A stretch of 64,000 nt of DNA from Oscillospiraceae bacterium. Its GTDB lineage: Bacteria; Bacillota; Clostridia; Monoglobales; Monoglobaceae. Made by a program: the position numbers and the translations under genes. The notes under the pieces are model-generated. The model made no database searches and had not been told where the DNA came from. It was given only the letters and a program-made list of their open reading frames with translations. The number at the start of each line of letters is the position of its first letter. Position 1 is the first letter of the stretch. Positions 1-49,681 of the stretch are shown here, in pieces. The DNA lies in assembly GCA_015068655.1 (NCBI GenBank), contig SVKC01000004.1, forward strand, positions 104 to 64,103, in the 5' to 3' direction.

Positions 1-591
1 GCCAAAAATTTCGAGAGCATCCACGGGATTTGCTCTTCCGTATATAATGAGGTTTGCAGGATCCAGATTTATTCCGAGATTGCTGTTTCCAACATCCTGA
101 ATAACTCTCATAAGTGTCACAGGTGTTTCCTGACCTGTTTCAAAGTTCAAATCAAGTCCCAAGCCAAGACAGTAATTTGCTATATGTCTTACACCGTTAA
201 CCACACCCCTGTATTCGGGATAGCAAGGCTGTTCAGGCATAAAGCCCATATGTGTTGCAAGATTGGGTGCTCCAACCATAACCGCAAAATCAGCGTGTTT
301 TTTCAAATCGTCTATTCTCTTTTCACGGTACTCAGGAGGTGTAAGCCCCAAGGTGAGAGGTCCGTCCAGAAAATCCCATACCTGAGGTCCTGACCATCCT
401 CCCCACACCGAGGAAACAGCAATTTTGTCTCCAAGCATTTCTTTTACTTTTTCAGCATTTTCCTTTGTGGAATATTTTGTATCCCACACCGAAAGCTGAA
501 CACATTCAATTCCAAGGGCAAAAAGCAAATCAGGACCCTCATTCAAAAGTCTGTCAAGATTAAATATTACACCTATACGATTATTATACAT
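1..591 (-). CDS. sugar phosphate isomerase/epimerase (xylose-isomerase-like TIM barrel), 3' end cut by window edge
   Basis: Not in the ORF track because there is no stop in the window. Own translation of the minus strand from ATG 591..589 gives MYNNRIGVIFNLDRLLNEGPDLLFALGIECVQLSVW...HMGFMPEQP...NFETGQETP...NLDPANLIIYG. The start overlaps the stop of the upstream oxidoreductase gene by 8 nt. Confidence 0.7.
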   Translation of the reverse strand, partial: MYNNRIGVIFNLDRLLNEGPDLLFALGIECVQLSVWDTKYSTKENAEKVKEMLGDKIAVSSVWGGWSGPQVWDFLDGPLTLGLTPPEYREKRIDDLKKHADFAVMVGAPNLATHMGFMPEQPCYPEYRGVVNGVRHIANYCLGLGLDLNFETGQETPVTLMRVIQDVGNSNLGINLDPANLIIYGRANPVDALEIFG

Positions 592-1600
592 AAACCATTA
601 CTCCCTTTTCAGCTGATTCTTTTTCTGCGTAAGACAGTTCAACCGTGAGCATTGTGCTTTCAGGATTGATAACCTCACTGTCTCTGTTATTTTCTATACA
701 ATCAATAAATTCAAGTATTTCTGCCACATACATATTGTTGTACTCTGCACAGGGAATACTGTAAACCTCTCCGTCTTCAGGATATACACACACAGAACCG
801 TCATCCTTCATTTCAAGTGTTGCCTTTTCACAGTTAACAATTCCTCTTACCACAAACGAAGTTGTCTTTGCCATACTCCAGTCAGTCATTGTGGTTACAT
901 AGAAGCCGTCATAAATAAAGTTTGAGCATATTGACTCATACTTATCCTTCACATGGCTTGCAGCAGAGATGACACTTTTTGGTTTGCCAAACAACCACTG
1001 CATGGTGTCAACATCATGAACATGGAGATCGAGAACCGCACCACCGCTCTTTTCATAGTCCAAAATCCAGTTTTCCCACGACCAAAGGGGCTTTGGTGAG
1101 AATCTTGAAAATTCTGCTCTGATAACCTTTCCGAACTTGCCTTCATCAAGAACCTTCTTGAGATTTACTCTCGGGCTTTCAAAACGGCAGCACTGTCCTA
1201 TCTGGAGCTTTACATTGTTTCTTTTTGCAGCTTCAATCATATTTTTGCAGGTTTCAACGCTTATTGCCATAGGCTTTTCCGAAAATACGTGAATCCCCTT
1301 GTCCATAACCTTTACAGCTACGGTTTCGTGAATGTATGTAGGAAGAGCTGTTACAACAAAGTCAAGTTTTTCCTTTGCCAAAAGCTCATCTACGTCGGTA
1401 TAAAGATTAAACGCCGACACATCAATAGGCGTAGTATCTCCGCCCAGATTTGTTGTAATTTCTTTTGTGAACTGTGTTTCATCAACGTCACAAAGGGCAA
1501 CCAAATTAATATCCGACTTAAATTTGTCCTTAATCTCAAAATAATTTCTGAAATGTACCTTTCCCAGTCCACCAAGACCAATAATAGCATAATTTAACAT
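584..1600 (-). CDS. Gfo/Idh/MocA-family NAD(P)-dependent oxidoreductase
   Basis: 338-aa ORF with an N-terminal Rossmann motif (MLNYAIIGLGGLGKVH) and the family-typical EKP motif (VFSEKPMA). GGAGGA RBS upstream of the ATG. No signal peptide. Confidence 0.85.
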   Translation of the reverse strand: MLNYAIIGLGGLGKVHFRNYFEIKDKFKSDINLVALCDVDETQFTKEITTNLGGDTTPIDVSAFNLYTDVDELLAKEKLDFVVTALPTYIHETVAVKVMDKGIHVFSEKPMAISVETCKNMIEAAKRNNVKLQIGQCCRFESPRVNLKKVLDEGKFGKVIRAEFSRFSPKPLWSWENWILDYEKSGGAVLDLHVHDVDTMQWLFGKPKSVISAASHVKDKYESICSNFIYDGFYVTTMTDWSMAKTTSFVVRGIVNCEKATLEMKDDGSVCVYPEDGEVYSIPCAEYNNMYVAEILEFIDCIENNRDSEVINPESTMLTVELSYAEKESAEKGVMVYV

Positions 1601-1626
1601 TTTTTCTTCCTCCTTTTTATATTATA

Positions 1627-2286
1627 TCACAACAAACGGTTTCTATCAAAGCCTGTATGCTTTAAAAACTCATTTGCAATAATCATCGCACCTGACTGAT
1701 TGGGATGAACTCTGTCCCAGGCAATGAAGCTTGAATGTCTGTGCTTGAAGTATTCGTCAAAAGCACTCTGCAAATCCACATATATGCATCCGTATTTTTC
1801 CGAAAGCTCCTTCAGTATTGCACCGTATTCATCAAGACGCTTTCTGAGCGGGTCCTCCTTGTACGGCTCCATATATACAGGAGTCATAAGAAATATTCCC
1901 TTTGTTTTATCCTTGATTTTCTCAATCATTTCCGTAATATTCGCGCGAAATTCCTCAGGGCTCACCTGATCCTCAACAATCGCAGGTGTGTCAAACTGAC
2001 GCCATACGTCGTTTACCCCAATGAGAATGCTCACCCACTGAGCATTCAATGCCACAACATCCTCATCAAAACGTTTGAGAAGGTCCTTGCTGCTGTCACC
2101 GCTGTTTCCGGTGTTTGATATACGCAAGTTAAGCTCAGGATAAAAAATATTCAAGAAGCTTTCAACAGTTCTCACATATCCGGGACCGACACCCTCACCC
2201 AAGCCTTCGCCCACGGGTCTGCGGCGTCCGAAGTCGGTTACAGAATCTCCTGTAAAAAGTATTCTGTCATTCTTTTCAAAAATCAT
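1627..2286 (-). CDS. SGNH/GDSL-family hydrolase (cytoplasmic esterase/deacetylase)
   Basis: GDS block (ILFTGDSVTDFG), GxND block (LIGVNDV) and C-terminal DxxH (DRVHPN). The ORF-track start at 2295 is a GTG inside the RBS. ATG at 2286 (MIFEKND...) lies 7 nt after GGAG. Confidence 0.85.
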   Translation of the reverse strand: MIFEKNDRILFTGDSVTDFGRRRPVGEGLGEGVGPGYVRTVESFLNIFYPELNLRISNTGNSGDSSKDLLKRFDEDVVALNAQWVSILIGVNDVWRQFDTPAIVEDQVSPEEFRANITEMIEKIKDKTKGIFLMTPVYMEPYKEDPLRKRLDEYGAILKELSEKYGCIYVDLQSAFDEYFKHRHSSFIAWDRVHPNQSGAMIIANEFLKHTGFDRNRLL

Positions 2287-2306
2287 ATAAAACACTCCTT
2301 TTTATG

Positions 2307-3140
2307 TTAAAGCTCAATTTTTCCCAAAATAATATCCATAGCAACCGACGAAGTATAAAGTGTTGAATTTTTATAATACTTAGTGGGAGGAAGCTCTGCT
2401 GTAACCCAATCGTCATAACCAATCTCAGCAAGCGCCTTCATAACCTCAGGATAATTCACATCGCCCTCAAGCAAATCAACAAAATTGTGGGTTGCTATCT
2501 GATAATCCTTGAAATGAACCTTTTTGATTTTGTCCTTCAGACATCTTATCCAATGCTCAGGATACCCGAACATCATTACGTTGCCCACATCAAAATAACA
2601 GTTCACATATTTACTGCCGACTTTATCAAGAAAATCCTTGAACTCAACGGGCGAATTAAGCAGCTTGTTGTGTACATTTTCGAGTGCAAGATTCACGCCA
2701 TACTTTTCAGCGTAGGGAGCAAGTTCGCCAACAGCTTCAAGTGCCCGTTCATAAGCCTCAGCATAATCAACAGGCTCAAAGCCCGGAAGAAAATCGCAAC
2801 CTACAATGCCGGGAAGTGCCAGAATGGTGTCACACTCAAGCATATTTGCCATTTCCAGCTGACGTATAATATGCGCTTTCGCTGTTTCTCTGTTTTCACT
2901 GTCAGGAGACGTAAGCGAATAAAGCCAGCAGGTAGAATCACTCAAGCTGTATAGTTCAAGACCTATTTCCTTTGCATAACTCTTGACCTTTTCTATATCA
3001 CTGTCCGTTGATGTAAAGTCCAGCTGCGAGCCAACAGTTATACTCAATTCCGCTCCGTCAAAGCCTGCTTTTTTTGCACAATCCATTTTTTCAAATAGTG
3101 TGTCGCCCAAAACAGACCCAATACACATTCCTTTTTTCAT
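2307..3140 (-). CDS. sugar phosphate isomerase/epimerase (xylose-isomerase-like TIM barrel)
   Basis: Motifs ALEN, FDVGN and HFKD are typical of AP-endonuclease-2/UlaE-like TIM barrels. The ATG at 3146 forms an ATGA overlap with the upstream stop. The ATG at 3140 has better GGAGG spacing. Confidence 0.8.
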   Translation of the reverse strand: MKKGMCIGSVLGDTLFEKMDCAKKAGFDGAELSITVGSQLDFTSTDSDIEKVKSYAKEIGLELYSLSDSTCWLYSLTSPDSENRETAKAHIIRQLEMANMLECDTILALPGIVGCDFLPGFEPVDYAEAYERALEAVGELAPYAEKYGVNLALENVHNKLLNSPVEFKDFLDKVGSKYVNCYFDVGNVMMFGYPEHWIRCLKDKIKKVHFKDYQIATHNFVDLLEGDVNYPEVMKALAEIGYDDWVTAELPPTKYYKNSTLYTSSVAMDIILGKIEL

Positions 3141-3142
3141 AA

Positions 3143-6100
3143 TCATTCCTCCACTTTATTGATATTATCTAAAAATGCCTTTATAGCATTTGTGAGCCTG
3201 ATTCTCTCTTCAACAACCAAAGTACGGTCAGCCGAAGCCCCCATATTCTGTATAGCTTCCGCATCTTCTATTACAGAACGCAAGGTCGCTTTTTCTTCTT
3301 CGGATGCATTGGGATACATTGCAAGTACGTTTTCCGCCTCCAAAATCTTTCTTGTCAGATAATTCGGTATAAGCACCTCTCTTGTTGGCATTGAAAGAAT
3401 ATTGGGATTGTTCTCTTCGATTATGTTTCCGTACATATCTTCAAAGGTCAGGTGAAAACGTCTTTGCGGCACCTTGCTTGCAAGCGAAGCATAGTCTCCT
3501 GTAAGCCCCGCTCCCGCAATTATCTGCGCCGCCTGTTCAGGAACATCAATCCCTGCAAATACAATCGGAGCCTCAACAGTGCAGTTTGCACCCTTGTCAA
3601 CATAATATCCGTTTGTACTGTAGTTGTTTTCAACTGTCAGGTCATACTGTTTGTTTGAATGAATATGGAAAGCCATATCTATATCCTCAAACACATTGTC
3701 GTGTACATATGTATATGCCGAACCGCTGTCAGGATAATAAGCCCCGTATGCATTTACCTGATTTTTGATGTAGTTTCCGAAAATCTCACTTCCCGGCTCC
3801 TGACCGAGAGTATATATTCCGCCTGCATCATAGGAACGCTGTGCGTAGTCCTCAATACGATTGTTTTTCACAACTGTATTTTTGCTTGTTACAGAATCAG
3901 CTGTACCTGTCCAGCCCCAGCCAAAGCATATGCCCGAATAGGGTATGTCACAAATATAATTTGAACTGATTTCGGTTGCTTCGGTATAATATGCCTGAAT
4001 ACCGGGAGCGCCCCAGTTGTAATCCCCGATTCTCGTAATATAGTTATTTGAAATTACGTTATTTTTGCACACCGCTTTTGAAGGAGTTGTTTCATCCTTT
4101 GAGATAATTTCAATCTCAGGTAAATAAAAGTAGGTGTTTTTGGTCTTTCTGACTCTTACATAACGGTATTTTTCAGAATCAGTAACATCTGCTGTTATGT
4201 CTCCGCTCTCGGTGTACTTTTCATCTGTAATATCACCAATGCTGTAAAGCACAGTATAATTGGAAAAATCTTCACTGTTTGACGCAAGAATTTCAAAATC
4301 TGTTCTTTCGGACTTCGTGGCTCTTTGTTTCAAGATAATCTTATCAATTTCATATGGTTTTTCCAAATCAACCTGCCAATATTCATTGGTGTAATTCGTA
4401 ACCCCCGGAACATATGTCCGCACATCATAAATATTCCAACCTCTCAGGTCGTCACCATCATTGGCATAAGCGGCATAATTCCCTATTTCGTTTACAGTCG
4501 AAGTAACCTTTTTGTTGTAAGCAACATTTTTTCCGTCTGTCAAGTCCTCCATATAAGCATCCTGAGGAGTTCCGACGGTTACAGCAGAATCACCGATGTC
4601 GCTGAATGCATTTCCGTTTATCAAAACATTTTCAGCACCGTCATAAAGTCCGATAGCAACCTTCGCAAGACCCGTGAATACGCTGTTTTCAAATTGAATA
4701 TTTTCTGCTGCCGCAACTGTTATGTTCGCATCAACTATTATATTTCCCGGAGCATATGCAGATTCAGGAATCTCAAACACAACCTGCGTCTGAGCCTGGT
4801 CGCCGAGAAAGCCTTTGTCGAAGTCCGTGTTTGTTGCATGAGCAAAGGTTATACCGTCAAAGCTTATGTTTTTCACCTTGTTGTCAAGGTTACTGCCTTT
4901 TATTCTCACAAGCTCGTCAAGTCTGGGTACGTACACAGAGGCAGTTTCCATATTTTCATTTTCAAAAGGCTTGTAGTACAAAACTCTCGTCTTTTTATCA
5001 AAATAAAATTCACCTTCGGTATCCAAAAGCTCCAACGCATTTTCCGCATAAAACTTGTTCTGCAACGTCAGCCAGAATATATGATACATTTTTCCGTCAA
5101 CAGGAGAGGATGTACTTTCATCCGGCTCAAAGGTCGTCATAAGCTCAAAAGGAATATCATCCATCAGCACAAGGGTTTGCCCGTTTCCTGCATCAGAAAG
5201 ACTTTTCACATTAATGGTAACCGAAGTCCATCCTCTCGAATAATGAAGCTGCATATCCTCAGGATTGGAAAATAATCCAATGTCCGATGAGTTTACGTAA
5301 TATCCAAGCTTCTTTCCGTCAACCTCATACATCGAACTGGGACTGATTTTTGTTTCGCTCTTTGCTCTCACAGCCTTATTGCCGTTTATGTACAGCTCAC
5401 GTATGGTCATTATGTCATCGTCAGTCACGCGTGTGGAATAAATCCCGTCACCGTCTTCATCCGAAAAGCCCTCGATTTTGCTTCCGCCTGAAATCACAAC
5501 ATTTTCGTTGTTGTATGCCTGATAATTGACGAAGTATCCGTTCTTACCCCCGTCCTCTTCCGAAAATACAAGGGTGTCGTCAAGCTCGTATGTTCCTTCC
5601 ATAAGATAAACATTTACATCCTCCGACATACCGCTGTTAAAGGTTCTTATTTCGCTTTGTGCTCTTTCAATTGTTGCAAAGGGCTTGTCAAGAGTTCCAG
5701 CCGCCGAATCATTACCATTTTTCGCAGAGACATAAATATTTTTGATATTACCCTTGTAAACCTTATTCTGTGCAAGAGGTGTCAAAGAATCCCTTTTCCA
5801 TACAAAAACTTTTATCTCTGAATCGTAAAGCTGCGGGTCTATGGAAAAGGGCATAACTACCTCTTTGGTATTCCCCGACTCAATCTCTGCATCTTCCCAT
5901 TCGGTATTTTTGAGCATACCTGTTGATGTGTACTGAGCCGCACATATAATCACACTCTGTTTTTCCGAAGAAAAGTTTGATATATTTGCCTTCACCGACG
6001 CCTCGGTCAGATTATGAAAATTATCTATGCTGCTGCCGCTTCCGTCAGCAGACTCATGCAATGTCACAGAATTTACTGCCAGTGCCGAAAGAGTTTCATA

Positions 6101-7486: not shown

Positions 7487-7503
7487 TGTGCGCACCTCCG
7501 CAA

Positions 7504-8973: not shown

Positions 8974-8993
8974 ATATTTATACCCCTTTCACA

Positions 8994-12125: not shown

Positions 12126-12215
12126 AGTTATAATCCTTCCTTTCAGATAAGGCATCTGCCTGGGGCACAAATCCTGTCTGTACCCCAAGCACCTCTAACT
12201 TTTGTCATTATTATT

Positions 12216-15836: not shown

Positions 15837-15881
15837 GTCAACCTCCTTATCTTGAAAATATCAAGCTGTAAACTACATATG

Positions 15882-15913
15882 GGAACAGAGAACAGCGAGC
15901 TATTCTCTGTTCC
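15882..15913 (-). other. perfect 11-bp intergenic stem-loop between genes E and D
   Basis: GGAACAGAGAA-N10-TTCTCTGTTCC in the only sizeable gap (85 nt) inside the operon. There is no U-tract on the transcribed strand. Confidence 0.5.
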
Positions 15914-15922
15914 GTGAAGTGT

Positions 15923-20419: not shown

Positions 20420-20473
20420 AATTTTACACCTCATTATAAATTTTTACTTTGCGGAAAGAATAATTTTCATCTC

Positions 20474-22216
20474 CTATCGGATTGTTTTATGATTAACCCA
20501 AGGTTTCATAAAATCATAATCTTTCCATATAAATGTTGCCAAACGGCAGTTTTCTCCATCTTCTATGTCAAAGCCGCACACAATAGTTGTGGGCTCTGCA
20601 AGAGGAAGTAAGGTTGCGCGCACTTCATTTATTTGAGTTACTGTATTGTTTTGGTCAAACAAAACCGTAAGAACAATTATATCCTCACTTTTCTCTGTCA
20701 TGTTGTTCTTCACAGTAACATATGCTCCTGCTTCCGTAACCCCGTCCAGCGAAGTAATTTCATTTCCTTCGCCCTCTTTTTTATCCTGAATTTTGAATTC
20801 ACGAACCTCTATGGCAGGCGGTGAAACGAGATTCAAGGTTGTCTCGGTCGCCAACCCCACTTCCTTCAGATTTTGTGCATCTTCGGAAATCACAACCCTT
20901 ACCTTTGAGTCAAAATAAGTTTTGTCAAGCTTGAGCGTCATTGTATATGCATCAGGGAACGCCGCATCAACCTCAAGCTTTTCGTCGCCAACAAAAACTG
21001 TAACACTGTTTTCATTGAGAGTTGCCGTGTCCATTTCATCGCTGAAATTCACTACCACTGTATCACCCGCAATCTCCGCACTGTTCACCTGAGGATGAAC
21101 TACATAAAGTGAAAATGTAGAAAGAGATGCACCAAGAGACATATAATGCTTGTATGTAATATAACGATATGCTTCTGTATCGTCTACTGTAGACTGGAAC
21201 TTGCCGGGCTTGCCATTCACATCTTCTGTACCCTCAGGAATCCATAATGACGGGAATACCATCTCTCCGTCAACCGGATTATCTGCTCCCACCTGAGCAA
21301 GCTTCTTAAAGCCCAGTTCTTCTGCCTCGGCATCTGCGGGAGGAGCACTGTATGGGTCAAAAATTGTATTATCCGTAGCATCCGTATTGCTTCCGTAAAG
21401 CTTTATATACTTTTTGCCCCATATATCTCCCATGCTTTCGTCTGCTGACATATCACGGGGAGTCATTTCTATCATACCTATATGATAGGGTTTGCCAAGG
21501 TCTACTCTGTAATATCTGTAAGCTGAACCGTCTTCAAGCCAGGAGGTTGATGTTTCACCGTCAAACGCAGCCTCAGGCGGTGCAAAATCATATATCCAAT
21601 GACTGTTGTCATTGAGAGCATCTGTTATGATTTTGTCTGCCTTTGTGCCTCTTGCAACATCAGTCACCGTCTGGTTTGCCCACACTTTTATTTCTGCGTA
21701 CTGATAATCACCCGATGCTGTTTTCTGAAACCTGATATATCGGTATGCATCCTCGCCGTCCAATTCAATTGTAAATGCCCCGCCATGGGGAAAAAGAGTG
21801 TCATCAGTTGAACCGAGACTTCCAAGAGTTACAGCATCAGAAAAATCCTCATTATTTGCACCGATAATATCAAAGTTTGCTCTTCCTGTGCTCATATCAT
21901 TGTCGTGACGGTCAAAAACCTCAATCTTTTCAACCTTGCATCTTCTAAGCAGGTCAATGGTAAAAGCTTCCTGACCCGCTACGTCCGGTCCGAATTCAGA
22001 AACGGTAAATGTATTCCTGTCACCGTCTGTGAGATTTGTTATTTCCCAACCCTCAATGGTATGAGTATGGGGATGGCTTGACACAATCGGTTTACATTCA
22101 GCCACATTTACAAGCTCTGTCTTCGATACAGGATACGATTCCGCCAAAGCAACTGTTTGCGGTAACGAAAAAAGCAAAGCCAGCGATACAGCTGATAAAA
22201 ATTTAAAATGTTTCAA
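20474..22216 (-). CDS. protein F: secreted 2x discoidin + Ig-like + beta-sandwich protein; paralogue of the N-terminal 580 aa of protein A
   Basis: TTG start and signal peptide (KHFKFLSAVSLALLFSLPQTVALA). Long colinear identity with A, for example FTIDLLRRCKVEKIEVFDR vs FTIDLLRRYKVQKIELFDR, and GDYQYAEIKVWANQT identical in both. Confidence 0.85.
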   Translation of the reverse strand: MKHFKFLSAVSLALLFSLPQTVALAESYPVSKTELVNVAECKPIVSSHPHTHTIEGWEITNLTDGDRNTFTVSEFGPDVAGQEAFTIDLLRRCKVEKIEVFDRHDNDMSTGRANFDIIGANNEDFSDAVTLGSLGSTDDTLFPHGGAFTIELDGEDAYRYIRFQKTASGDYQYAEIKVWANQTVTDVARGTKADKIITDALNDNSHWIYDFAPPEAAFDGETSTSWLEDGSAYRYYRVDLGKPYHIGMIEMTPRDMSADESMGDIWGKKYIKLYGSNTDATDNTIFDPYSAPPADAEAEELGFKKLAQVGADNPVDGEMVFPSLWIPEGTEDVNGKPGKFQSTVDDTEAYRYITYKHYMSLGASLSTFSLYVVHPQVNSAEIAGDTVVVNFSDEMDTATLNENSVTVFVGDEKLEVDAAFPDAYTMTLKLDKTYFDSKVRVVISEDAQNLKEVGLATETTLNLVSPPAIEVREFKIQDKKEGEGNEITSLDGVTEAGAYVTVKNNMTEKSEDIIVLTVLFDQNNTVTQINEVRATLLPLAEPTTIVCGFDIEDGENCRLATFIWKDYDFMKPWVNHKTIR

Positions 22217-22236
22217 GTGAGATACATTCCTTTCCG

Positions 22237-24048
22237 TTATTTAAGTGTTTCTTTTGCAATCTTTGTCATGTCCTCTGCCATCTTGTCAACGTCAACAATA
22301 TCCTTCATATTTTTGATTGCAGCTTCCCATTTTTTATCAAACTCTTCGTCAGATTTTGCAACAAGCGTAAGCTTAAAGGGATCTTCCCACTGTGAACGTG
22401 ATGACCAGAATTTTATAACAGTATCAAGCTCTGCATACTCTGCAGCCCATACATCTGACGGAGGTGCAGGCACAGGAGTTACAACATGCTCACTGTCAGG
22501 ACTGAATTTTCCTCCGTCCTCGGGAACCATACCATAAGTTGCAACCTTGTTGTATATCATCGGATTCCATTTGCTGTTAAGCTTAAATTTCATAGTGAAT
22601 GGTCCGCAGGTTGTATCAAGACCCATACAATCTTCATCGTTCAGATTATTTTCCTGATGGTAAATATATTTTTTGTTGAACTCGTCATTCACAAAAGTTC
22701 TTGTACCATCCTCATTCTCTACATAAAGCCCCGCGTCCTTTGGACCCCAGTTGCGGATTTCCTCCCATTCATCGGTAAACTGCACATTCATCCAGTTAAG
22801 TATCTGGGGAAGGTCTTCTTCCTTCACCGTCTTCAAGATACCTACAGAATCACCCCATGAAAGCGGCTGCTCGGTTACATCATAACCTTCTGCAGTTTTA
22901 ACCTTTGTGTAAAGCGGTCTGTAACGGAAATCTTTGCCGGATTTTGCAATTGTGTCATTTACAAACGGAGGATGCCCTGCTGCTGAAATAATTGCCATTG
23001 CATACTGACCGTTCAACACCTTCTCCTTGAACTGTGCATCTGTATGTACCAAGCTGTCCGGATCAATTATACCTTCTCTCAAAAGCTGATTTTGAAGAAG
23101 AGCACCTTCCTTTACAACATCATCAAGAAGCGGAATTATAATTTTTTCATTTTTTGTATCCCACGAAGAAATATAATGATGTCCCACATATCCCATAAGC
23201 TGTGCACCAAGAAGTGCAAGAGGCTGCCAGCAGTCAGCACCGGCATAACCGAATGTATACACATCCTTCTTTCCTACCTTCAAATCGAGAGCATCAATAT
23301 CCTTCATAAGCTTAACTACATCCTCTGTGCTCTCAATGGGTACATCATATATGTAGTCACCAATAGGCTTACCCTCTTTTTCAAGAAGCTCAAGCATATC
23401 ATTATAGCTCAACGCATCAGGATAGAGCATCTGTAAAATATCGTCTCTTATCCATATTGATGTTCCCACATCAGTATAAACCTTTCCCGATGCAGCAATT
23501 TCTTCGTCTGAAATATCCGGGTCTATTCTTCTGTCCACAGGGAAGTTATATGGAACGCCATATATTTTTCCGTTGACCTTCATTCTTTCCCACATTGCCT
23601 GAGGAACACTTTCCCAAACATCCGGTGCATACTTTTGAAGCATTTCAGGAGTCAACTCCCAGATTTTGTCTGCTTCAGCAATCTTTGCAAAGTGTGCGGG
23701 ACCCTGACCGCCGCCGCAAGCTACAAGCTCGGGGAAGTTATTTCCTGCAATAAGTCTTGCAAGCACGCCTTCCCACTGACCGCCGCCGTTGCCGTAAGTG
23801 TTTTTAATCTTTACCCTCGTCTTGTCCTGAAGCCACTGACCTACAAGATTTTCCTTTGCCTCAACAGGCGGAACATAGTCAGAGCCCTGTGTAACCCATA
23901 CAGTTATATCCATATCTTTTTGGGGAACAAATTTTCCGTCCTGAGTAAGCACCGATGATGTCTTTTCTTCTTTTTTGCAAGCAGAAAGACCGCCAAGCAA
24001 AAAGCATGCCACAAGAATTCCTGAAATGATTTTTTTCAGCTGTTTCAT
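22237..24048 (-). CDS. extracellular solute-binding lipoprotein of a carbohydrate ABC transporter (LplA-like)
   Basis: 603 aa. Lipobox LSAC after a hydrophobic leader (MKQLKKIISGILVACFLLGGLSAC). AGGAGG RBS. Adjacent to two permease genes. Confidence 0.85.
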   Translation of the reverse strand: MKQLKKIISGILVACFLLGGLSACKKEEKTSSVLTQDGKFVPQKDMDITVWVTQGSDYVPPVEAKENLVGQWLQDKTRVKIKNTYGNGGGQWEGVLARLIAGNNFPELVACGGGQGPAHFAKIAEADKIWELTPEMLQKYAPDVWESVPQAMWERMKVNGKIYGVPYNFPVDRRIDPDISDEEIAASGKVYTDVGTSIWIRDDILQMLYPDALSYNDMLELLEKEGKPIGDYIYDVPIESTEDVVKLMKDIDALDLKVGKKDVYTFGYAGADCWQPLALLGAQLMGYVGHHYISSWDTKNEKIIIPLLDDVVKEGALLQNQLLREGIIDPDSLVHTDAQFKEKVLNGQYAMAIISAAGHPPFVNDTIAKSGKDFRYRPLYTKVKTAEGYDVTEQPLSWGDSVGILKTVKEEDLPQILNWMNVQFTDEWEEIRNWGPKDAGLYVENEDGTRTFVNDEFNKKYIYHQENNLNDEDCMGLDTTCGPFTMKFKLNSKWNPMIYNKVATYGMVPEDGGKFSPDSEHVVTPVPAPPSDVWAAEYAELDTVIKFWSSRSQWEDPFKLTLVAKSDEEFDKKWEAAIKNMKDIVDVDKMAEDMTKIAKETLK

Positions 24049-24084
24049 AAAAAATTCCTCCTATTTATTATAAAAATTTTTATA

Positions 24085-24978
24085 TTAATCTTTAACCGCT
24101 CCGATTGCTACGCCCTTAACAAAATATTTCTGCAGAAACGGGTATGTGCAAATAATTGGCAATGTTGAAAAAATAATTGCCGCAGCTTTCACCGATTCTG
24201 AAGTCGGTCTTGCGCGTACAGTGGTTGAACCTCCCGTGAGTGCTGAATCATTTACCATTTTCTGCACCACTTCGCTTTGTTTTATTATCTGCTGTATAAT
24301 ATACTGAAGTTTGAAAAGTGAAGGTTCGTTTACGTAGTAAAGTGTAGTTGTCCAGTCGTTCCATGATGCAACCATTGTCCATAGAGCAACTGTCGCAAGA
24401 ACAGGTTTGCAAAGAGGTAATATTACCTTGTAAAGTATCTGCATTTCGTTGGCACCCTCAATATATGCCGCTTCTTCCAGAGCAACAGGCAGTGAGTTCA
24501 AAAACGTTCTTATAATAATAACATTATAGAATGTAAATGCCGATGGCAGTATGTAAACCAAGATATTATTTATAAGATGCAAATACCTGAACAATATGAA
24601 TGTAGGTATTACACCTGCATTTATATAGCTGGGCAGAAGAAGAATCCATATAATAGCATTTCTGAACGGTAAATCCTTCTTTTTTATTGCATAAGCCGCC
24701 CCAACACAAACTACCAGCGTGAAAACCGTGGAACAGATAACAGTTATTACTGTAACCAAGGTCGAACGAATCAGCGATTCATTGGAAAAGATGGTATCAT
24801 AATTCGACCATGTCCACTTTCTCGGGAAAATCGTAATACCGCCCAACATAGTATCGGTACCGTCATTAAGTGATATTGCAAGCTGATTGAGATACGGATA
24901 TATCATAATAACACACATAAGCACCATAAACACAACCAAAAATACATCAAATATTCTTTCTCCAAAACTTCTTTTCAC
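24085..24978 (-). CDS. carbohydrate ABC transporter permease (LplC/YtcP-like)
   Basis: Six predicted TM segments. EAA loop LEEAAYIEGANEMQILYKVILP. GTG start 6 nt after GGGGGTG. Confidence 0.9.
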   Translation of the reverse strand: MKRSFGERIFDVFLVVFMVLMCVIMIYPYLNQLAISLNDGTDTMLGGITIFPRKWTWSNYDTIFSNESLIRSTLVTVITVICSTVFTLVVCVGAAYAIKKKDLPFRNAIIWILLLPSYINAGVIPTFILFRYLHLINNILVYILPSAFTFYNVIIIRTFLNSLPVALEEAAYIEGANEMQILYKVILPLCKPVLATVALWTMVASWNDWTTTLYYVNEPSLFKLQYIIQQIIKQSEVVQKMVNDSALTGGSTTVRARPTSESVKAAAIIFSTLPIICTYPFLQKYFVKGVAIGAVKD

Positions 24979-24991
24979 TCAAGACACCCCC

Positions 24992-25951
24992 TTACCATAT
25001 TCCAACACCGCTGACACGTTTTACAATAAAGTTCGTTATGCACACCAGTGCAAAGGATACAGCACCCTGGAACATTCCGAACGCCGTTGAAAGCGAATAT
25101 TCAGCATTCAATATACCCTGTCTGTAAACAAGAGTGTTTATAACCTCTGTTTCTTCCTGAATATAAATGTTCTGGAAACCGAAAACCTGTTCGAAATTAA
25201 GTGTAACAAGGCTGGCAGTATTCATTATGAATATTATTGCTATTGTGGGAAGCAGGCACGGTATCGTAATATACAAAACCTGCTTAAACCTGTTGCATCC
25301 GTCAACCATAGCCGCTTCGTACAACGTCGGGTCAATGCCCGTTATTGCAGCAAGGAATATAATTGAGTTCCAACCGATGTTTTTCCATATATTTGTCCAG
25401 AAAAGTATTCCAAGAAAGTTATCCGCATCCGTAAGAATATTTTTCGCTTCATAAGATTCTCCGACAATTGCCGCCATAAACGAATTATATGTACCGTCAA
25501 GGGCAAAAAATGCCGAAAACATACCTACTACCGATATCCACGACAAAAAGTACGGCAAATAGCTTATAGTCTGAACAACTCTTTTGAATTTAATCATTCT
25601 CAGCTCATTAAACAAAAGAGCAAGAATTATTGGAAACGGCATTCCCAAAAACAACTGAACACTGCTATATTTAACAGTATTTATTATGGCTTTTGTAAAC
25701 TTCGGCATAGTAAATATTTTCACAAAATTATCAAAGCCGACAAATTCACTCGCCGTTATTCCCCCTATTATGTCATAATCCTGAAATGCTATTACAAGAC
25801 CGAACATAGGCAGATAACAGAACACCAAAACCAAAATCAGCGCCGGAGCAAGAATCAAATACAGAAACCTGTACTTTTTCATTCGTGAAAGCAGGCTTTT
25901 TGAGCCAAGACGCTCTTGCGTCTCTTCTTTCTTTCTGTTTAGTGCGTTCAA
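24992..25951 (-). CDS. carbohydrate ABC transporter permease (LplB/YteP-like)
   Basis: Polytopic membrane protein. EAA loop YEAAMVDGCNRFKQVLYITIP. TTG start after GGGGTGG. First gene of the operon. Confidence 0.9.
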   Translation of the reverse strand: MNALNRKKEETQERLGSKSLLSRMKKYRFLYLILAPALILVLVFCYLPMFGLVIAFQDYDIIGGITASEFVGFDNFVKIFTMPKFTKAIINTVKYSSVQLFLGMPFPIILALLFNELRMIKFKRVVQTISYLPYFLSWISVVGMFSAFFALDGTYNSFMAAIVGESYEAKNILTDADNFLGILFWTNIWKNIGWNSIIFLAAITGIDPTLYEAAMVDGCNRFKQVLYITIPCLLPTIAIIFIMNTASLVTLNFEQVFGFQNIYIQEETEVINTLVYRQGILNAEYSLSTAFGMFQGAVSFALVCITNFIVKRVSGVGIW

Positions 25952-26114
25952 TATACCACCCCATTAATATTTTATCATATATAAATTTTAACATTTTTTC
26001 TTCTTTTTTTAAACTACACAATGTTATCAAAACGCACCAAAATATTATTTTTTTTATAAACACCGATGCGAAATAAAGGAAGTTATGTGCACTATTACTT
26101 TTAATTACCAATTA

Positions 26115-26168
26115 TTATAAAAAATACAACAAGGACAGCTTCCTGTTCAATACAGGAGTCTGTCCTTG
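26115..26168 (-). terminator. rho-independent terminator-like hairpin (looks bidirectional)
   Basis: CAAGGACAGCTTCCTG-N7-CAGGAG.CTGTCCTTG. It is followed by a T-run on the minus strand (TTGTATTTTTT) and by CTGTTTTCTT on the plus strand. It insulates the S-layer/REP region from the ABC operon promoter. Confidence 0.65.
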
Positions 26169-26172
26169 CTGT

Positions 26173-48513: not shown

Positions 48514-48534
48514 GCTTTATTTCACCTCCTGAAA

Positions 48535-49516: not shown

Positions 49517-49681
<165 letters not shown>

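What the first reader, a model, noticed from the sequence alone, without database searches (positions are those of the whole stretch)
1..25951. 26-kb single-strand operon joining an ABC sugar importer, six giant discoidin/beta-helix/SLH surface proteins and a cytoplasmic redox-isomerase module, with no catalytic family I can name
Thirteen genes run head-to-tail on the minus strand, from the TTG start at 25951 to the window edge. Gaps are 40 nt or less, and several are 4-8 nt overlaps. The one exception is an 85-nt gap that holds a hairpin. The nearest upstream terminator is at 26115-26168 and I saw none inside. Gene order is permease, permease, 603-aa lipoprotein SBP, F, E, D, C, B, A, TIM barrel, SGNH esterase, Gfo/Idh/MocA oxidoreductase, TIM barrel. 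Proteins A to F total about 6,260 aa of secreted protein. The layout is that of a Gram-positive polysaccharide utilisation locus. However, none of the secreted proteins shows a glycoside hydrolase or lyase signature I can recognise by eye. There is also no ATPase, no regulator and no cytoplasmic glycosidase. The many F5/8-type-C domains (at least ten) suggest a galactose- or GalNAc-type or otherwise complex glycan target.
Basis: partly seen in the sequence, partly recalled or inferred. Interest (0 to 1): 0.8.

Follow-up and report, generated by a model that had tools for sequence, protein, structure and literature searches.

The report
Gut Clostridia glycan-and-phosphoester utilisation locus
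This is a real, tightly packed gene cluster of an uncultured gut Oscillospiraceae bacterium that joins a sugar importer, two cell-surface GH141 glycosidases, a giant secreted metallophosphoesterase and S-layer anchors; it is an unusual variant of a Gram-positive polysaccharide-utilisation locus, probably aimed at a phosphate-ester-bearing glycan, not a new kind of system.

Summary
Thirteen co-directional, tightly spaced genes fill window 1-25951, with ten Pfam-detectable discoidin domains and a stable hairpin in the one large gap.

A and D are confident GH141 glycoside hydrolases (PDB BT_1002, E=1e-48 and 1e-53), with both catalytic Asp conserved and a discoidin domain inserted in the beta-helix. 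E is a secreted metallophosphoesterase with all metal-binding motifs intact. C is a paralogue of the neighbouring S-layer-like protein with a discoidin domain in front. B is an SLH anchor. F is a binding-module-only protein that also forms the N-terminus of A and occurs twice in E.

The "missing" regulator and cytoplasmic glycosidases are an edge artefact. A same-species contig (99% nt identity) continues with an AraC-type two-component system, a GH20-like 840-aa protein, a GH109-like enzyme and a second giant metallophosphoesterase. That gives 18 genes over about 38 kb.

The cassette perm-perm-SBP-F-(E)-D-C-B-TCS-A recurs in several gut Clostridia MAGs. E-family relatives sit directly behind 2-aminoethylphosphonate operons in three genomes.

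Best reading: a surface depolymerisation and import system for a HexNAc-rich glycan carrying phosphoester or phosphonate-ester groups. The substrate is unproven. Novelty: new variant of a known kind.

The parts
25952..26168 (-). Upstream control region. A hairpin plus U-run terminator lies at about 26168-26120. It is followed by an AT-rich stretch with weak sigma-70-like matches ahead of the first permease.
   Evidence: Sequence read. The terminal hairpin appears in the fold. Promoter-like matches lie at 26072-26044 and 26013-25985 (9/12). These are consensus matches only.
24992..25951 (-). ABC importer permease 1 (319 aa, TTG start)
   Evidence: PF00528 BPD_transp_1, 30.7 bits. The best NCBIfam similarities are UgpA, GlcT and MalF, all below their cut-offs. 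Conserved at 61-93% identity in L010, L013 and L014.
24085..24978 (-). ABC importer permease 2 (297 aa)
   Evidence: PF00528, 51.5 bits. UgpE, GlcU and MalG-like below cut-off. 65-96% identity in L007, L010, L013 and L014.
22237..24048 (-). 603-aa lipoprotein, the probable solute-binding protein of the importer
   Evidence: Lipobox LSAC at residues 21-24. No Pfam or NCBIfam hit. Weak PDB match to 'Extracellular solute-binding protein family 1', 9pmy, E=2.4e-6. Homologues in L008 and L009 carry a faint SBP_bac_1 hit. It always follows the two permeases.
20474..22216 (-). F: secreted 580-aa protein made only of binding-type modules (two discoidin domains, an Ig-like domain and a beta-rich C-terminus), with no anchor
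   Evidence: F5_F8_type_C in 2 stretches, Big_5 weak. 52% identical to A residues 12-518. Similar to two segments of E. About 70% identical to 6615-7423 at the DNA level.
15923..20434 (-). E: secreted 1503-aa metallophosphoesterase. The N-terminal catalytic domain plus an fn3-like domain (about residues 38-520) is followed by two F-like binding modules.
   Evidence: PF00149, 30.9 bits at residues 56-297. Motifs DxH, GD, GNHE, H and HxH are invariant in the 23-sequence family alignment A1. AF2 pLDDT 88.7. Foldseek top hits are SMPDL3B (3.6e-8), purple acid phosphatases and PhoD. The family has 584 representatives at E<=1e-3.
15837..15922 (-). Intercistronic stem-loop between E and D (14-bp stem, no U-tract)
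   Evidence: -29.3 kcal/mol, z=-4.9. A strong hairpin of unrelated sequence lies at the same place in L008, L010 and L011.
12216..15836 (-). D: secreted 1206-aa GH141 glycoside hydrolase with a discoidin domain inserted in the beta-helix and a C-terminal region of about 490 aa of unknown function
   Evidence: GH141_M at 128-277, F5/8C at 430-540, Beta_helix at 553-691. 5mqp BT_1002 at E=4.9e-53 in two segments, 31-409 and 563-714. Q334, D646 and D679 correspond to BT1002 Q336, D523 and D564.
8994..12188 (-). C: surface protein made of a discoidin domain, SLH repeats and an S-layer-protein-like body of about 730 aa
   Evidence: F5/8C at 56-172, SLH from 215. Residues 212-909 are 27% identical to the neighbouring 975-aa SLH protein (E=3.6e-47). 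Homologues of the body are all SLH proteins of about 850 aa with no other domain.
7504..8973 (-). B: 489-aa protein with an N-terminal domain of about 300 aa of unknown function and three C-terminal SLH repeats (a cell-wall anchor or scaffold)
   Evidence: SLH in 3 stretches, E=9e-33. The N-terminal domain is conserved next to C in L007, L008 and L009 at 32-43% identity.
3143..7495 (-). A: secreted 1450-aa protein made of an F-like binding module (1-~570) and a GH141 catalytic beta-helix with an inserted discoidin domain
   Evidence: GH141_M at 691-843, F5/8C at 1006-1121, Beta_helix at 1147-1299. 5mqp at E=2.5e-48. 35% identical to D over 884 aa. D1223 and D1256 correspond to BT1002 D523 and D564.
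2307..3146 (-). Cytoplasmic xylose-isomerase-like TIM-barrel enzyme 1 (279 aa). It is ketose-3-epimerase-like or lyase-like.
   Evidence: PF01261 at E=9e-49. PDB hits are MJ1311 and D-tagatose/psicose 3-epimerases at 1e-9 to 1e-6, and the DgpB-type C-glycoside deglycosidase subunit at 1e-5. All NCBIfam hits are far below their cut-offs.
1627..2295 (-). Cytoplasmic SGNH/GDSL esterase (222 aa), a probable de-O-acylase of imported oligosaccharide
   Evidence: PF13472 at E=8e-25. No signal peptide in the N-terminal sequence.
584..1600 (-). Cytoplasmic Gfo/Idh/MocA NAD-dependent sugar dehydrogenase (338 aa)
   Evidence: PF01408 and PF22725. The best PDB hits are DgpA1 (4e-22), RgNanOx-type (4e-20) and inositol dehydrogenases. 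NCBIfam gives UDP-GlcNAc 3-dehydrogenase and IolG (2e-36) and the BT_2158 glycoside 3-dehydrogenase family (6.5e-13), all below cut-off.
1..591 (-). TIM-barrel enzyme 2 (first 197 of 279 aa). Its start overlaps the stop of the Gfo gene by 8 nt.
   Evidence: Translation. PF01261. 100% identical to the L037 homologue. The full-length L001 homologue matches PDB 3tva at 1e-40, a protein of unknown function. The same overlapping Gfo-TIM pair lies next to a GH9 in L035.

Best explanation
The cluster is the first two-thirds of a glycan-utilisation locus of about 38 kb and 18 genes in an uncultured gut Oscillospiraceae bacterium.

Shown:
- Two secreted GH141 beta-helix glycosidases (A, D) keep the catalytic Asp pair of the family.
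- One secreted metallophosphoesterase (E) keeps a complete metal site. A second lies beyond the window edge.
- Ten discoidin-type binding domains are spread over A, C, D, E and F.
- Two SLH proteins (B, C) can bind the cell wall.
- A binding-protein-dependent importer heads the cluster.
- Cytoplasmic enzymes follow: an esterase, an NAD-dependent dehydrogenase and two TIM barrels. Beyond the edge lie a GH20-like and a GH109-like enzyme.
- An AraC-type two-component system sits inside the locus.

Inferred mechanism:
1. The two-component system switches the locus on when the substrate or its oligosaccharide is present.
2. At the cell surface the discoidin modules hold a complex glycan.
3. The metallophosphoesterases hydrolyse phosphodiester or phosphonate-ester bridges or decorations.
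4. The GH141 enzymes cut the sugar chain. B and C keep the machinery at the wall.
5. The oligosaccharides enter through the ABC importer, which is powered by a shared ATPase encoded elsewhere.
6. In the cytoplasm they are de-O-acylated by the SGNH esterase and cleaved by the GH20-like and GH109-like enzymes.
7. The Gfo-TIM-TIM module either cleaves a glycoside by oxidation and elimination, or converts a released polyol, inositol or ketose into a central metabolite.

The stem-loop after gene E probably sets different transcript levels for the upstream genes (importer, F, E) and the downstream genes (D onwards).

The most likely substrate class is a HexNAc-rich glycopolymer that carries phosphoester groups. 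Candidates are teichoic-acid-like, capsular or secondary cell-wall polymers of other microbes, or a protist or plant phospho- or phosphono-glycoconjugate. The exact substrate is not known.
For: GH141 identity and catalytic residues.

Metallophosphoesterase:
- Pfam hit above the gathering score.
- All motifs invariant in the family alignment.
- Confident model and fold matches to SMPDL3B, purple acid phosphatases and PhoD.

Anchoring and binding modules.

Importer.

Extension in the same species (98.96% nt identity over 11.6 kb), giving RR, HK, X840, GH109-like and a second metallophosphoesterase, followed by a gene on the opposite strand.

X839/X840:
- Confident model (pLDDT 90).
- Best fold matches are GH20, GH67, GH138, GH84 and GH89 (E=1e-16 to 1e-12).
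- The family profile reaches GH20 chains at 5.7e-5.
-.

GH109_C domain at E=5.6e-58.

Conserved cassette in L007, L008, L009, L010, L011, L013 and L014, including two paralogous loci in one genome.

A hairpin at the same position in three other loci, with unrelated sequence.

E-family proteins lie directly downstream of phnS2-T2-U2-W-X (2-aminoethylphosphonate uptake and catabolism; four of the five genes score above the NCBIfam cut-offs, phnT2 441.4 against 457.7) in L034. Close copies of the five genes lie upstream of the E-family match in L033 and L023 as well; ORFs were not called in those two, and about 1.4 kb separates PhnX from the estimated E start in L033. This shows that members of this family work on extracellular phospho(no)ester substrates whose products are imported.

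Precedents:
- A secreted enzyme related to purple acid phosphatases that is proposed to act on teichoic acid (PhoD): PMC4223295.
- A Gfo/Idh/MocA enzyme plus a 'sugar phosphate isomerase' acting together as a non-Koshland glycosidase: 10.1101/2024.03.25.586180.
Against: - No enzyme activity, transcript or substrate datum exists. Every step of the mechanism beyond the domain assignments is inference.
- GH141 has only three characterised activities: alpha-L-fucosidase on RG-II, endo-xylanase and endo-fucanase. None of these substrates carries phosphate.
- L007 has the cassette without an E gene, so the phosphoesterase is not obligatory.
- The phn-linked E relatives are only 24-25% identical to E.
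- The cytoplasmic module is not part of the conserved core. It is absent from L007-L009.
- Gfo and both TIM barrels score far below every NCBIfam equivalog cut-off.
- Signal peptides and the lipobox were judged by eye and by hydrophobicity only.
- The SBP assignment rests on position, the lipobox and one weak PDB match.
Confidence: 0.65

Rival explanations
1. It is a plant cell-wall locus for pectin/RG-II-type, fucosylated or xylan glycans. The GH141 enzymes do all the depolymerisation. The metallophosphoesterases are only phosphate scavengers that happen to be co-located.
For: - The closest solved relative of A and D is the RG-II alpha-L-fucosidase BT_1002. Gln336, which BT1002 shares with the xylanase Xyn141E, is kept.
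- X839 resembles GH67, GH115 and GH138 uronidases in fold.
- An SGNH esterase fits acetylated plant glycans.
- The related MAGs come from goat and other herbivore guts.
- L007 lacks E.
Against: - E-type genes are part of the cassette in L008, L009, L010 and L011 (two in tandem) and in L013 and L014. A second copy closes the locus in the same species.
- E carries the same substrate-binding F modules as the glycosidase A. That argues for the same target.
- None of the many other GH/PL families needed for pectin or RG-II is present.
- The GH109-like and GH20-like enzymes point to HexNAc rather than pectin.
Confidence: 0.2
2. The target is a sphingolipid-anchored phosphoglycan or phosphonoglycan. 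Examples are plant or fungal glycosyl-inositol-phosphoceramide, protist lipophosphonoglycan and ceramide aminoethylphosphonate. E acts like a sphingomyelinase-type phosphodiesterase. The Gfo and TIM-barrel enzymes process the inositol-containing head group.
For: - The top structural match of E is the sphingomyelinase-like SMPDL3B.
- Two ceramidase-like genes (PF04734, 36.7 bits, above the cut-off) close the cassette in L007, and a distant homologue lies next to a weakly matching cytoplasmic Metallophos protein in L029 (21-24% identity over residues 7-331).
- Gfo scores equally well against IolG, and the TIM barrels hit IolE and IolO weakly.
- E-family members are linked to 2-aminoethylphosphonate catabolism in three genomes.
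- X839 resembles alpha-glucuronidases and alpha-/beta-hexosaminidases in fold.
Against: - SMPDL3B beats purple acid phosphatases only marginally, and all TM-scores are about 0.4.
- The ceramidase-like proteins are short and cover half the Pfam profile. The L029 one misses the threshold.
- There is no ceramidase or phn gene in this species' locus.
- All inositol-pathway similarities are far below the family cut-offs.
- The importer is of the oligosaccharide type.
Confidence: 0.12
3. The locus remodels or recycles the bacterium's own wall. It would turn over its SLH-binding secondary cell-wall polymer or S-layer glycan rather than forage for food.
For: - C is a paralogue of the adjacent, strongly promoted S-layer-like gene.
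- B and C carry SLH domains.
- Secondary cell-wall polymers are typically HexNAc-rich and phosphodiester-linked to peptidoglycan (own knowledge).
Against: - A dedicated inducible two-component system, a high-capacity importer and catabolic enzymes are the hallmarks of nutrient acquisition.
- Ten lectin-type domains and duplicated, diverged copies of the whole cassette in one genome fit diversification towards different external glycans.
Confidence: 0.08
4. The 13 genes are not one operon. They are several transcription units that are co-oriented only because the whole region lies on the leading strand.
For: - Almost all genes in the 64-kb window are on the minus strand.
- A stable hairpin separates E from D.
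- In the same-species contig, gaps of about 80-140 nt precede the response regulator and E2.
- Promoter-like matches occur inside the cluster, for example 11/12 at 1649-1621.
Against: - Eleven of the twelve junctions are 39 nt or less, and two are overlaps.
- No internal hairpin has a U-tract, and terminator-like hits do not exceed chance.
- Gene order is conserved across loci that share only 30-60% protein identity.
- Promoter-like hits are not significantly enriched over shuffles.
Confidence: 0.25

Closest known systems
GH141 glycoside hydrolases: BT_1002 alpha-L-fucosidase of the Bacteroides thetaiotaomicron RG-II PUL (PDB 5mqp), Xyn141E of Acetivibrio thermocellus, and the Wf141 endo-fucanases
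   Same: A and D share the beta-helix with the GH141_M insertion, match BT_1002 at E=1e-48 and 1e-53, and keep the Asp523/Asp564 pair and Gln336.
   Different: - Identity to BT_1002 is only about 30% (my estimate; not computed).
- A discoidin domain of about 110 aa is inserted where BT_1002 has an 18-residue loop.
- A has an N-terminal F-like module of about 570 aa, and D has an unknown C-terminal extension of about 490 aa.
- The host is Gram-positive, and there are none of the other RG-II, xylan or fucoidan enzymes nearby.
- Specificity cannot be transferred.
Gram-positive polysaccharide-utilisation loci with SLH-anchored enzymes, a CUT1-type ABC importer and a YesM/YesN-type two-component system (own knowledge of Bacillus/Paenibacillus LplABC and YesOPQ-type systems and of Clostridia gpPULs)
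   Same: - Two permeases plus a large lipoprotein SBP, with no ATPase in the locus.
- An AraC-type response regulator and a His_kinase (PF06580) sensor inside the locus.
- Secreted CAZymes with binding modules.
- SLH wall attachment.

   Different: - The SLH domains are on separate non-catalytic proteins (B, C). The enzymes themselves have no anchor.
- One anchor is an S-layer-protein paralogue.
- Giant metallophosphoesterases are core members.
- The substrate is unknown.
Secreted phosphodiesterases of the purple-acid-phosphatase/PhoD/SMPDL3 structural group, for example B. subtilis PhoD, which is proposed to release phosphate from wall teichoic acid (PMC4223295)
   Same: A binuclear metallophosphoesterase fold and an extracytoplasmic location. 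Structural matches at E=4e-8 to 9e-6.
   Different: - No sequence-level match to any PDB chain.
- TM-scores are about 0.4.
- E is three times larger and is fused to an fn3-like domain and two lectin-type modules.
- It is embedded in a glycan locus rather than a Pho regulon context.
Non-Koshland oxidative glycoside-cleavage clusters (AL1-5 / BT2156-2160; DgpA-DgpBC; levoglucosan Lgd enzymes)
   Same: A Gfo/Idh/MocA dehydrogenase sits next to proteins annotated as sugar phosphate isomerases (xylose-isomerase-like TIM barrels). The best PDB hit of Gfo is DgpA1. There are weak hits to the BT_2158 family and to DgpB-type chains.
   Different: - There is one dehydrogenase rather than two, and no DUF1080 protein.
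- The location is cytoplasmic rather than periplasmic.
- Scores are far below the BT_2158/BT_2159 family cut-offs (48 against 750 bits).
- Ketose-3-epimerase or inositol-type roles fit equally well.
GH20 / GH67 / GH84 / GH89 / GH138 architecture, for the 839-840-aa protein just beyond the window
   Same: The predicted N-terminal alpha/beta domain, (beta/alpha)8 barrel and helical C-terminal bundle match these families at Foldseek E=1e-16 to 1e-12. The family profile reaches GH20 chains at 5.7e-5.
   Different: - No Pfam, NCBIfam or single-sequence PDB match.
- There is an invariant NEPR motif and a four-Cys cluster of its own.
- It is probably an unclassified family. It has at least 854 members, all unnamed.

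Membership tests
GH141 (proteins A and D) | Significant sequence similarity to the founding member BT_1002, with the family-specific insertion domain | tested here: met
   5mqp at E=2.5e-48 (A) and 4.9e-53 (D). PF21231 GH141_M scores 46.2 and 36.0 bits against a cut-off of 27.
GH141 (proteins A and D) | Catalytic Asp pair (BT1002 D523 and D564) | tested here: met
   D646 and D679 in D, and D1223 and D1256 in A, align to the two Asp. The chain-to-native offset of 5 was checked through Q336.
GH141 (proteins A and D) | Glycosidase activity and its specificity | not testable with these tools
   Needs enzyme assays. Known family activities are alpha-L-fucosidase, endo-xylanase and endo-fucanase.
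Calcineurin-like metallophosphoesterase (protein E) | Five metal-binding motifs: DxH, GD, GNH(E/D), H, GHxH | tested here: met
   D26/H28, G63/D64, G118-N119-H120-E121, H219 and H257/H259 (numbering of fragment 38-520) are invariant in 23 family members. PF00149 scores 30.9 bits against a cut-off of 21.5.
Calcineurin-like metallophosphoesterase (protein E) | Alpha/beta sandwich fold of the superfamily | tested here: met
   AF2 pLDDT 88.7 and pTM 0.90. There are 289 PDB matches at E<=1e-3, led by SMPDL3B, purple acid phosphatases and PhoD.
Teichoic-acid or phosphoglycan phosphodiesterase (functional class proposed for E) | Hydrolysis of phosphodiester or phosphonate-ester bonds in a glycopolymer | not testable with these tools
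   Only context supports this. E shares F modules with glycosidase A. It is conserved in the cassette. Distant relatives lie behind phnSTUWX operons.
Gram-positive polysaccharide-utilisation locus | Co-located CAZyme(s), a carbohydrate transporter and a regulator | tested here: met
   GH141 twice, an ABC importer in the window, and the two-component system in the same-species contig L037/L038.
Gram-positive polysaccharide-utilisation locus | Co-regulation by the substrate | not testable with these tools
   No transcript data. Only tight spacing and conserved order are available.
Binding-protein-dependent sugar ABC importer (CUT1-like) | Two BPD_transp_1 permeases, an extracellular SBP and an ATPase | tested here: inconclusive
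   The permeases are met. The SBP is supported only by the lipobox, its position and a weak PDB hit. No ATPase lies in the 18-gene locus. A shared ATPase elsewhere is assumed from knowledge of Firmicutes systems.
SLH-mediated cell-wall anchoring (B, C) | Tandem SLH repeats | tested here: met
   B has 3 stretches (112 bits). C has 2 stretches (78 bits).
S-layer protein family (body of C) | Homology to SLH-plus-body proteins without other domains, and self-assembly into a lattice | tested here: inconclusive
   Homology is met: 27% identity over 773 aa to the 975-aa neighbour, and 49 homologues that are all SLH-only proteins. Lattice formation is not testable.
Oxidative (non-Koshland) glycoside-cleavage cluster AL/BT2156-2160 | Two Gfo/Idh/MocA dehydrogenases, a TIM-barrel 3-keto-glycoside lyase and a DUF1080 lyase/hydratase | tested here: not met
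   The module has one Gfo. GH109-like is a second fold relative further on. There are two TIM barrels and no DUF1080. The BT_2158 family score is 48 bits against a cut-off of 750. 'Works like' remains possible.
myo-Inositol catabolism (IolG/IolE/IolI-type) | Equivalog-level matches to IolG and IolE | tested here: not met
   IolG scores 125.6 bits against a cut-off of 355. IolE scores 33 and 23 bits against a cut-off of 290.
GH109 (gene beyond the window edge) | Rossmann N-domain plus the GH109 C-terminal domain | tested here: met
   PF21252 at E=5.6e-58 and PF01408 at E=4.9e-15 for the L001 homologue. A 421-aa orthologue lies in the same-species contig.

The most novel reading that the evidence does not exclude
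The locus, and the clade-wide cassette it represents, may be a dedicated system for eating phosphodiester- or phosphonate-ester-linked glycopolymers. Candidate substrates are the teichoic-acid, capsular or secondary wall polymers of other gut microbes, or protist and plant phospho- or phosphono-glycoconjugates. In this reading, giant lectin-decorated metallophosphoesterases serve as backbone- or decoration-cleaving 'depolymerases' alongside GH141 enzymes. That would make a phosphoesterase a core catalytic member of a polysaccharide-utilisation locus. It would also assign a first physiological role to a family of at least 584 large secreted metallophosphoesterases, some of which feed 2-aminoethylphosphonate operons.
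Probability: 0.3. Interest if true: 0.75.

Novelty: new variant of a known kind. Interest (0 to 1): 0.45.

Why it matters
If the reading is right, three things follow.

1. It points to a nutrient niche that is barely charted in gut ecology. That niche is the breakdown of phosphate-ester-bearing glycopolymers (microbial wall polymers, protist or plant phosphoglycans) by Gram-positive anaerobes.

2. It gives testable roles to three large groups of unnamed proteins:
   - GH141 enzymes with an inserted discoidin domain;
   - a family of at least 584 giant secreted metallophosphoesterases;
   - a family of at least 854 cytoplasmic GH20-like proteins with no Pfam model.

3. The link between E-family enzymes and 2-aminoethylphosphonate operons in three genomes suggests how gut and termite-gut bacteria could release phosphonates from macromolecules.

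If the reading is wrong and the phosphoesterases are mere phosphate scavengers, the locus is an ordinary plant-glycan PUL whose GH141 specificity is unknown.

Tried and rejected
Searches and scans that gave little or nothing:
- The word-indexed protein search with the E catalytic region returned only two weak hits and not even E's own cluster. The exhaustive HMMER search was needed to reach the family.
- The 23-sequence alignment A1 was too divergent for the search for related loci. A 5-sequence alignment worked.
- The metagenome scan with TIM2 gave a single locus.
- NCBIfam named none of A-F, the SBP or X839.
- A phmmer search of the PDB found nothing for E or X839.
- Rfam found nothing in the window at gathering thresholds. 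In the structured intergenic region it gave only sub-threshold chance hits.
- No tRNA genes are present.
- A literature search for PDB entry 9rx2, and for any described GH141+GH109 or teichoic-acid PUL, found nothing relevant.
The locus end was reached through P0059 instead.

Readings I rejected:
- That L001-L006 are the same organism. They share only 56-88% protein identity with the window. L037 is the same-species contig.
- That the cluster is a horizontally acquired island. Its GC content is the same as the rest of the window.
- That the E-D hairpin is an intrinsic terminator. It has no U-tract.
- That the locus is an RG-II PUL. No other RG-II enzyme families are present.
- That the Gfo/TIM module can be filed under the BT2156-2160 pathway or the inositol pathway. 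Scores are far below the cut-offs.

Full report
**Observation**

One search lists thirteen minus-strand ORFs from 25951 down to the window edge. The last one starts at 591 and overlaps the stop of the Gfo gene by 8 nt.

Intergenic distances are 13, 36, 20, 39, 86, 27, 20, 8, -4, 11, 26 and -8 nt. The 86-nt gap (15837-15922) holds a 14-bp stem-loop (-29.3 kcal/mol, z=-4.9) that is not followed by a U-run.

- BPD_transp_1 in both permeases;
- xylose-isomerase-like TIM barrels at 2307-3146 and 1-591;
- a GDSL/SGNH esterase;
- a Gfo/Idh/MocA oxidoreductase;
- ten F5/8-type-C stretches (A 3, C 1, D 1, E 3, F 2);
- SLH repeats in B and C.

A-F all begin with a signal-like hydrophobic segment. None has an LPXTG motif or a C-terminal membrane segment. 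The 603-aa protein has a lipobox.

A stronger terminator at 26525-26498 ends the preceding gene. Terminator-like sites inside the cluster are no more frequent than in shuffled sequence.

One caveat applies. Nearly all genes of the 64-kb window lie on the minus strand, including a ribosomal-protein/SecY/RpoA block at 46-63 kb, and GC skew is negative throughout. Co-orientation by itself therefore says little. The tight spacing and the conserved gene order (see below) carry the argument.

**Source**

Exact-sequence look-up places the proteins in a MAG annotated as Ruminococcaceae/Oscillospiraceae bacterium (locus tags E7412_, contig of 64,187 nt). Relatives come from goat caecum and rectum, other ruminant samples and human (Hadza) gut MAGs.

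**What the six secreted proteins are**

- **A and D** are GH141 glycoside hydrolases.
  - Both hit Pfam GH141_M above the gathering score.
  - Both hit the founding structure BT_1002 (5mqp) at E=2.5e-48 and 4.9e-53.
  - The HMMER alignment splits into two blocks (D 31-409 and 563-714). A discoidin domain (430-540) replaces an 18-residue loop of BT_1002.
  - Asp523 and Asp564 are the residues shown to be essential in BT_1002 (PMC12786026). They align with D646/D679 in D and D1223/D1256 in A.
  - Gln336, which BT_1002 shares with the xylanase Xyn141E but not with the endo-fucanases, is also kept.
  - A carries in addition an N-terminal module that is 52% identical to the whole of F. Its GH141 part is 35% identical to D.

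- **E** is a metallophosphoesterase.
  - PF00149 scores 30.9 bits against a cut-off of 21.5.
  - An exhaustive HMMER search found 584 representatives at E<=1e-3, mostly proteins of 1000-2000 aa.
  - In a 23-member alignment the DxH, GD, GNHE, H and HxH motifs are invariant.
  - The AlphaFold model is confident (pLDDT 88.7). It consists of a phosphoesterase sandwich plus an fn3-like domain.
  - Its best PDB neighbours are SMPDL3B (3.6e-8), purple acid phosphatases and, further down, PhoD.
  - The rest of E is two F-like modules.

- **C** has a discoidin domain, SLH repeats and a body of about 730 aa. The body is 27% identical over 773 aa to the 975-aa SLH protein encoded just upstream at 26565-29492. 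All 49 homologues of that body are SLH proteins of about 850 aa with no other domain. The upstream gene has three near-perfect sigma-70-type promoters and a strong terminator, as expected for an S-layer gene. C therefore looks like an S-layer-protein paralogue carrying a lectin domain.

- **B** has an unknown domain of about 300 aa and three SLH repeats.

- **F** has no catalytic or anchoring domain.

**Beyond the window edge**

A contig from another sample (L037) is 98.96% identical over 11.6 kb to window 1-11600. It therefore shows how this species' locus continues. With L038 (linked to L037 by identical gene order and product lengths, its identity to the window not computed), the order is:

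1. TIM barrel 2 (279 aa);
2. an AraC-type response regulator (539 aa);
3. a PF06580 histidine kinase (546 aa);
4. an 840-aa protein with no Pfam domain;
5. a GH109-like protein (421 aa);
6. a second secreted metallophosphoesterase of 1496 aa (47% identical to E in its first 617 residues);
7. a gene on the other strand, which ends the locus.

The locus is thus 18 genes and about 38 kb.

The 839/840-aa protein belongs to a family of at least 854 unnamed proteins. The family has an invariant NEPR motif and a Cys cluster. Its model (pLDDT 90) matches GH20, GH67, GH138, GH84 and GH89 enzymes at E=1e-16 to 1e-12. The family profile reaches GH20 chains at 5.7e-5.

A more distant species (L001-L006; 56-88% protein identity) has an M24 peptidase, an ASRT protein, a creatininase-family protein and a DUF4432 protein in place of the second phosphoesterase.

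**Conservation**

The order perm-perm-SBP-F-(E)-D-C-B-(two-component system)-A recurs with 30-60% protein identity in several loci:
- L007;
- L008 and L009, which are two paralogous loci in one genome, GCA_054297345.1;
- L010;
- L011, which has two E genes in tandem;
- L013 and L014, in rearranged form with an E-like gene ahead of the permeases.

The cytoplasmic genes vary. The window's species has the TIM-SGNH-Gfo-TIM module, L008 has a GH109-like gene, and L007 has two ceramidase-like genes (PF04734, 36.7 bits). L007 has no E.

A strong hairpin of unrelated sequence sits directly after the E gene in L008, L010 and L011. The stem-loop is therefore conserved by position. I infer that it stabilises or partly terminates the upstream transcript segment.

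**A lead on the E family**

In the cultured Ruminiclostridium cellobioparum subsp. termitidis CT1112 (L034), an SLH-anchored E-family protein follows phnS2-T2-U2-W-X directly. This protein is 1478 aa and carries Metallophos, CBM9 and Laminin_G_3 domains. Four of the five phn genes score above NCBIfam's curated cut-offs; phnT2 scores 441.4 against a cut-off of 457.7.

In two MAGs from other lineages (L033, L023), copies of the five phn genes (71-91% identical to those of L034) lie upstream of the E-family match. ORFs were not called there. In L033 about 1.4 kb separates PhnX from the estimated E start.

These relatives are only 24-25% identical to E. They do show that members of this family act outside the cell on phosphoester or phosphonate-ester substrates whose products are then imported.

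**The cytoplasmic module**

- Gfo's best solved relatives are the C-glycoside 3-oxidase DgpA1, NanOx-type enzymes and inositol dehydrogenases. NCBIfam gives equal sub-threshold scores to UDP-GlcNAc 3-dehydrogenase and IolG. It gives weaker ones to levoglucosan dehydrogenase and the BT_2158 glycoside 3-dehydrogenase family.
- TIM1 resembles ketose 3-epimerases and, weakly, DgpB-type chains.
- TIM2 matches only a structural-genomics entry of unknown function (3tva, 1e-40).
- The overlapping Gfo-TIM2 pair also occurs next to a GH9 in an unrelated metagenome contig. The two therefore probably work together on a sugar.

A Gfo/Idh/MocA enzyme with a 'sugar phosphate isomerase' has been shown to cleave glycosides by oxidation and elimination (10.1101/2024.03.25.586180). 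That is one reading. Conversion of a released polyol, inositol or ketose is the other. Neither family membership is met at the curated thresholds.

**Mechanism proposed**

Shown:
- the catalytic identities of A and D (GH141) and of E (metallophosphoesterase);
- binding and anchoring domains;
- importer parts;
- the regulator and further enzymes in the same species;
- conserved synteny.

Inferred:
1. The two-component system induces the locus.
2. The discoidin modules capture a complex glycan at the surface.
3. E and E2 hydrolyse phosphodiester or phosphonate-ester bridges or decorations, and A and D cut the sugar chain.
4. B and C hold the machinery at the wall. How the anchorless A, D, E and F are retained is unknown.
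5. Oligosaccharides enter through the ABC importer. The ATPase is encoded elsewhere, as is usual for this class in Firmicutes (own knowledge).
6. The SGNH esterase, the GH20-like and GH109-like enzymes and the Gfo/TIM module finish the breakdown.

The HexNAc-type cytoplasmic enzymes and the two phosphoesterases make a HexNAc-rich glycopolymer with phosphoester groups the most likely substrate class. Candidates are microbial wall or capsular polymers, or protist or plant phospho- or phosphono-glycoconjugates. PhoD, a relative of purple acid phosphatases proposed to act on wall teichoic acid, is a precedent (PMC4223295).

**Rivals**

- A plain plant-glycan locus in which E only scavenges phosphate.
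- A sphingolipid-anchored phosphoglycan target. The SMPDL3B-like fold, the ceramidase-like genes in L007 and the IolG-like Gfo support it, but all weakly.
- Turnover of the cell's own wall polymer.
- Several independent transcription units.

**Comparison and novelty**

Each part belongs to a known kind: GH141, metallophosphoesterase, SLH anchoring, an ABC importer and a YesMN-like two-component system. The whole is a Gram-positive PUL.

The unusual features are:
- giant lectin-decorated phosphoesterases as recurrent cassette members;
- a discoidin domain inserted into the GH141 helix;
- an S-layer-protein paralogue used as a lectin-bearing anchor;
- an unnamed GH20-like family.

I found no description of such a locus in the searchable literature.

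I rate it a new variant of a known kind, with moderate interest (0.45). The most novel reading still open is a dedicated system for phosphoester-linked glycopolymers. I give it a probability of about 0.3.

Noticed in passing
window 26565-29492 (-), promoters 29820-29624, terminator 26525-26498: A 975-aa protein with N-terminal SLH repeats and no other Pfam domain lies just upstream. It is preceded by three near-perfect sigma-70-type promoters (12/12, 11/12, 11/12) and followed by a 12-bp-stem terminator. It is probably the S-layer protein, and it is the paralogue of the body of protein C.
   Followed up: partly
window 26110-26497 (-): A 388-nt intergenic stretch lies between the S-layer-like gene and the locus promoter. 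It is exceptionally structured (MFE -160 kcal/mol, z=-9.6) and ends in a terminator hairpin. It has no Rfam match above the gathering score. It could be a small RNA, or a pile-up of GC-rich palindromic repeat elements.
   Followed up: partly
window 63452-63556 and 63896-64000; also L009 6231-6380: A 105-nt GC-rich palindromic element (…GGGAGGGGGACCACCGAAGGTGGTGGAGGG…) occurs twice at 99% identity near the window end. A similar element fills the E-D gap of the related locus L009. It looks like a REP-like intergenic repeat family of these Clostridia.
   Followed up: no
L034 3541-13703; L033 2432-~11100; L023 3793-~11100: A complete 2-aminoethylphosphonate uptake and catabolism operon (phnS2-T2-U2-W-X) lies upstream of a large E-family metallophosphoesterase in three genomes, one of them the cultured Ruminiclostridium cellobioparum subsp. 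termitidis CT1112. In L034 the E gene follows phnX directly and four of the five genes score above the NCBIfam cut-offs (phnT2 441.4 against 457.7). In L033 and L023 only tblastn matches were made, and about 1.4 kb separates PhnX from the estimated E start in L033. This suggests an enzyme that frees phosphonate from extracellular glycoconjugates.
   Followed up: partly
L007 21169-23147: Two tandem ceramidase-like genes (PF04734, 36.7 bits) close the homologous cassette in a more distant relative that lacks the E gene. A remote homologue lies next to a cytoplasmic Metallophos protein in L029 (8447-9790).
   Followed up: partly
L001 15202-17721; L037 15217-17739 (just beyond window position 1): An 839-840-aa cytoplasmic protein belongs to a family of at least 854 unnamed proteins with no Pfam model. 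The predicted fold is GH20/GH67/GH138-like, with an invariant NEPR motif and a four-Cys cluster. It is a candidate unclassified glycoside hydrolase family.
   Followed up: partly
L008 and L009 (both GCA_054297345.1); L011 2173-11311: One genome carries two diverged copies of the whole F-E-D-C-B-TCS-A cassette. Another locus has two E genes in tandem. The cassette appears to diversify by duplication.
   Followed up: no
L035 5099-8810: The overlapping Gfo/Idh/MocA and TIM-barrel pair (45% identical to TIM2) lies directly after a GH9 gene in an unrelated metagenome contig.
   Followed up: no
window 34631-35467 (-) and 35480-36163 (-): A third xylose-isomerase-like TIM-barrel gene sits next to a PnuC-type nicotinamide mononucleotide transporter, outside the locus.
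   Followed up: no
window 46771-62670 (-): The ribosomal-protein, SecY, methionine aminopeptidase and RpoA block, together with MetK, TrmFO-like and SpoIIP genes, shows that the region is core chromosome on the leading strand and not a mobile island.
   Followed up: no
(tool behaviour): The word-indexed homology search with E residues 38-520 returned two weak hits and missed E's own 90% cluster. That cluster exists in the collection. The exhaustive search found 584 relatives.
   Followed up: yes
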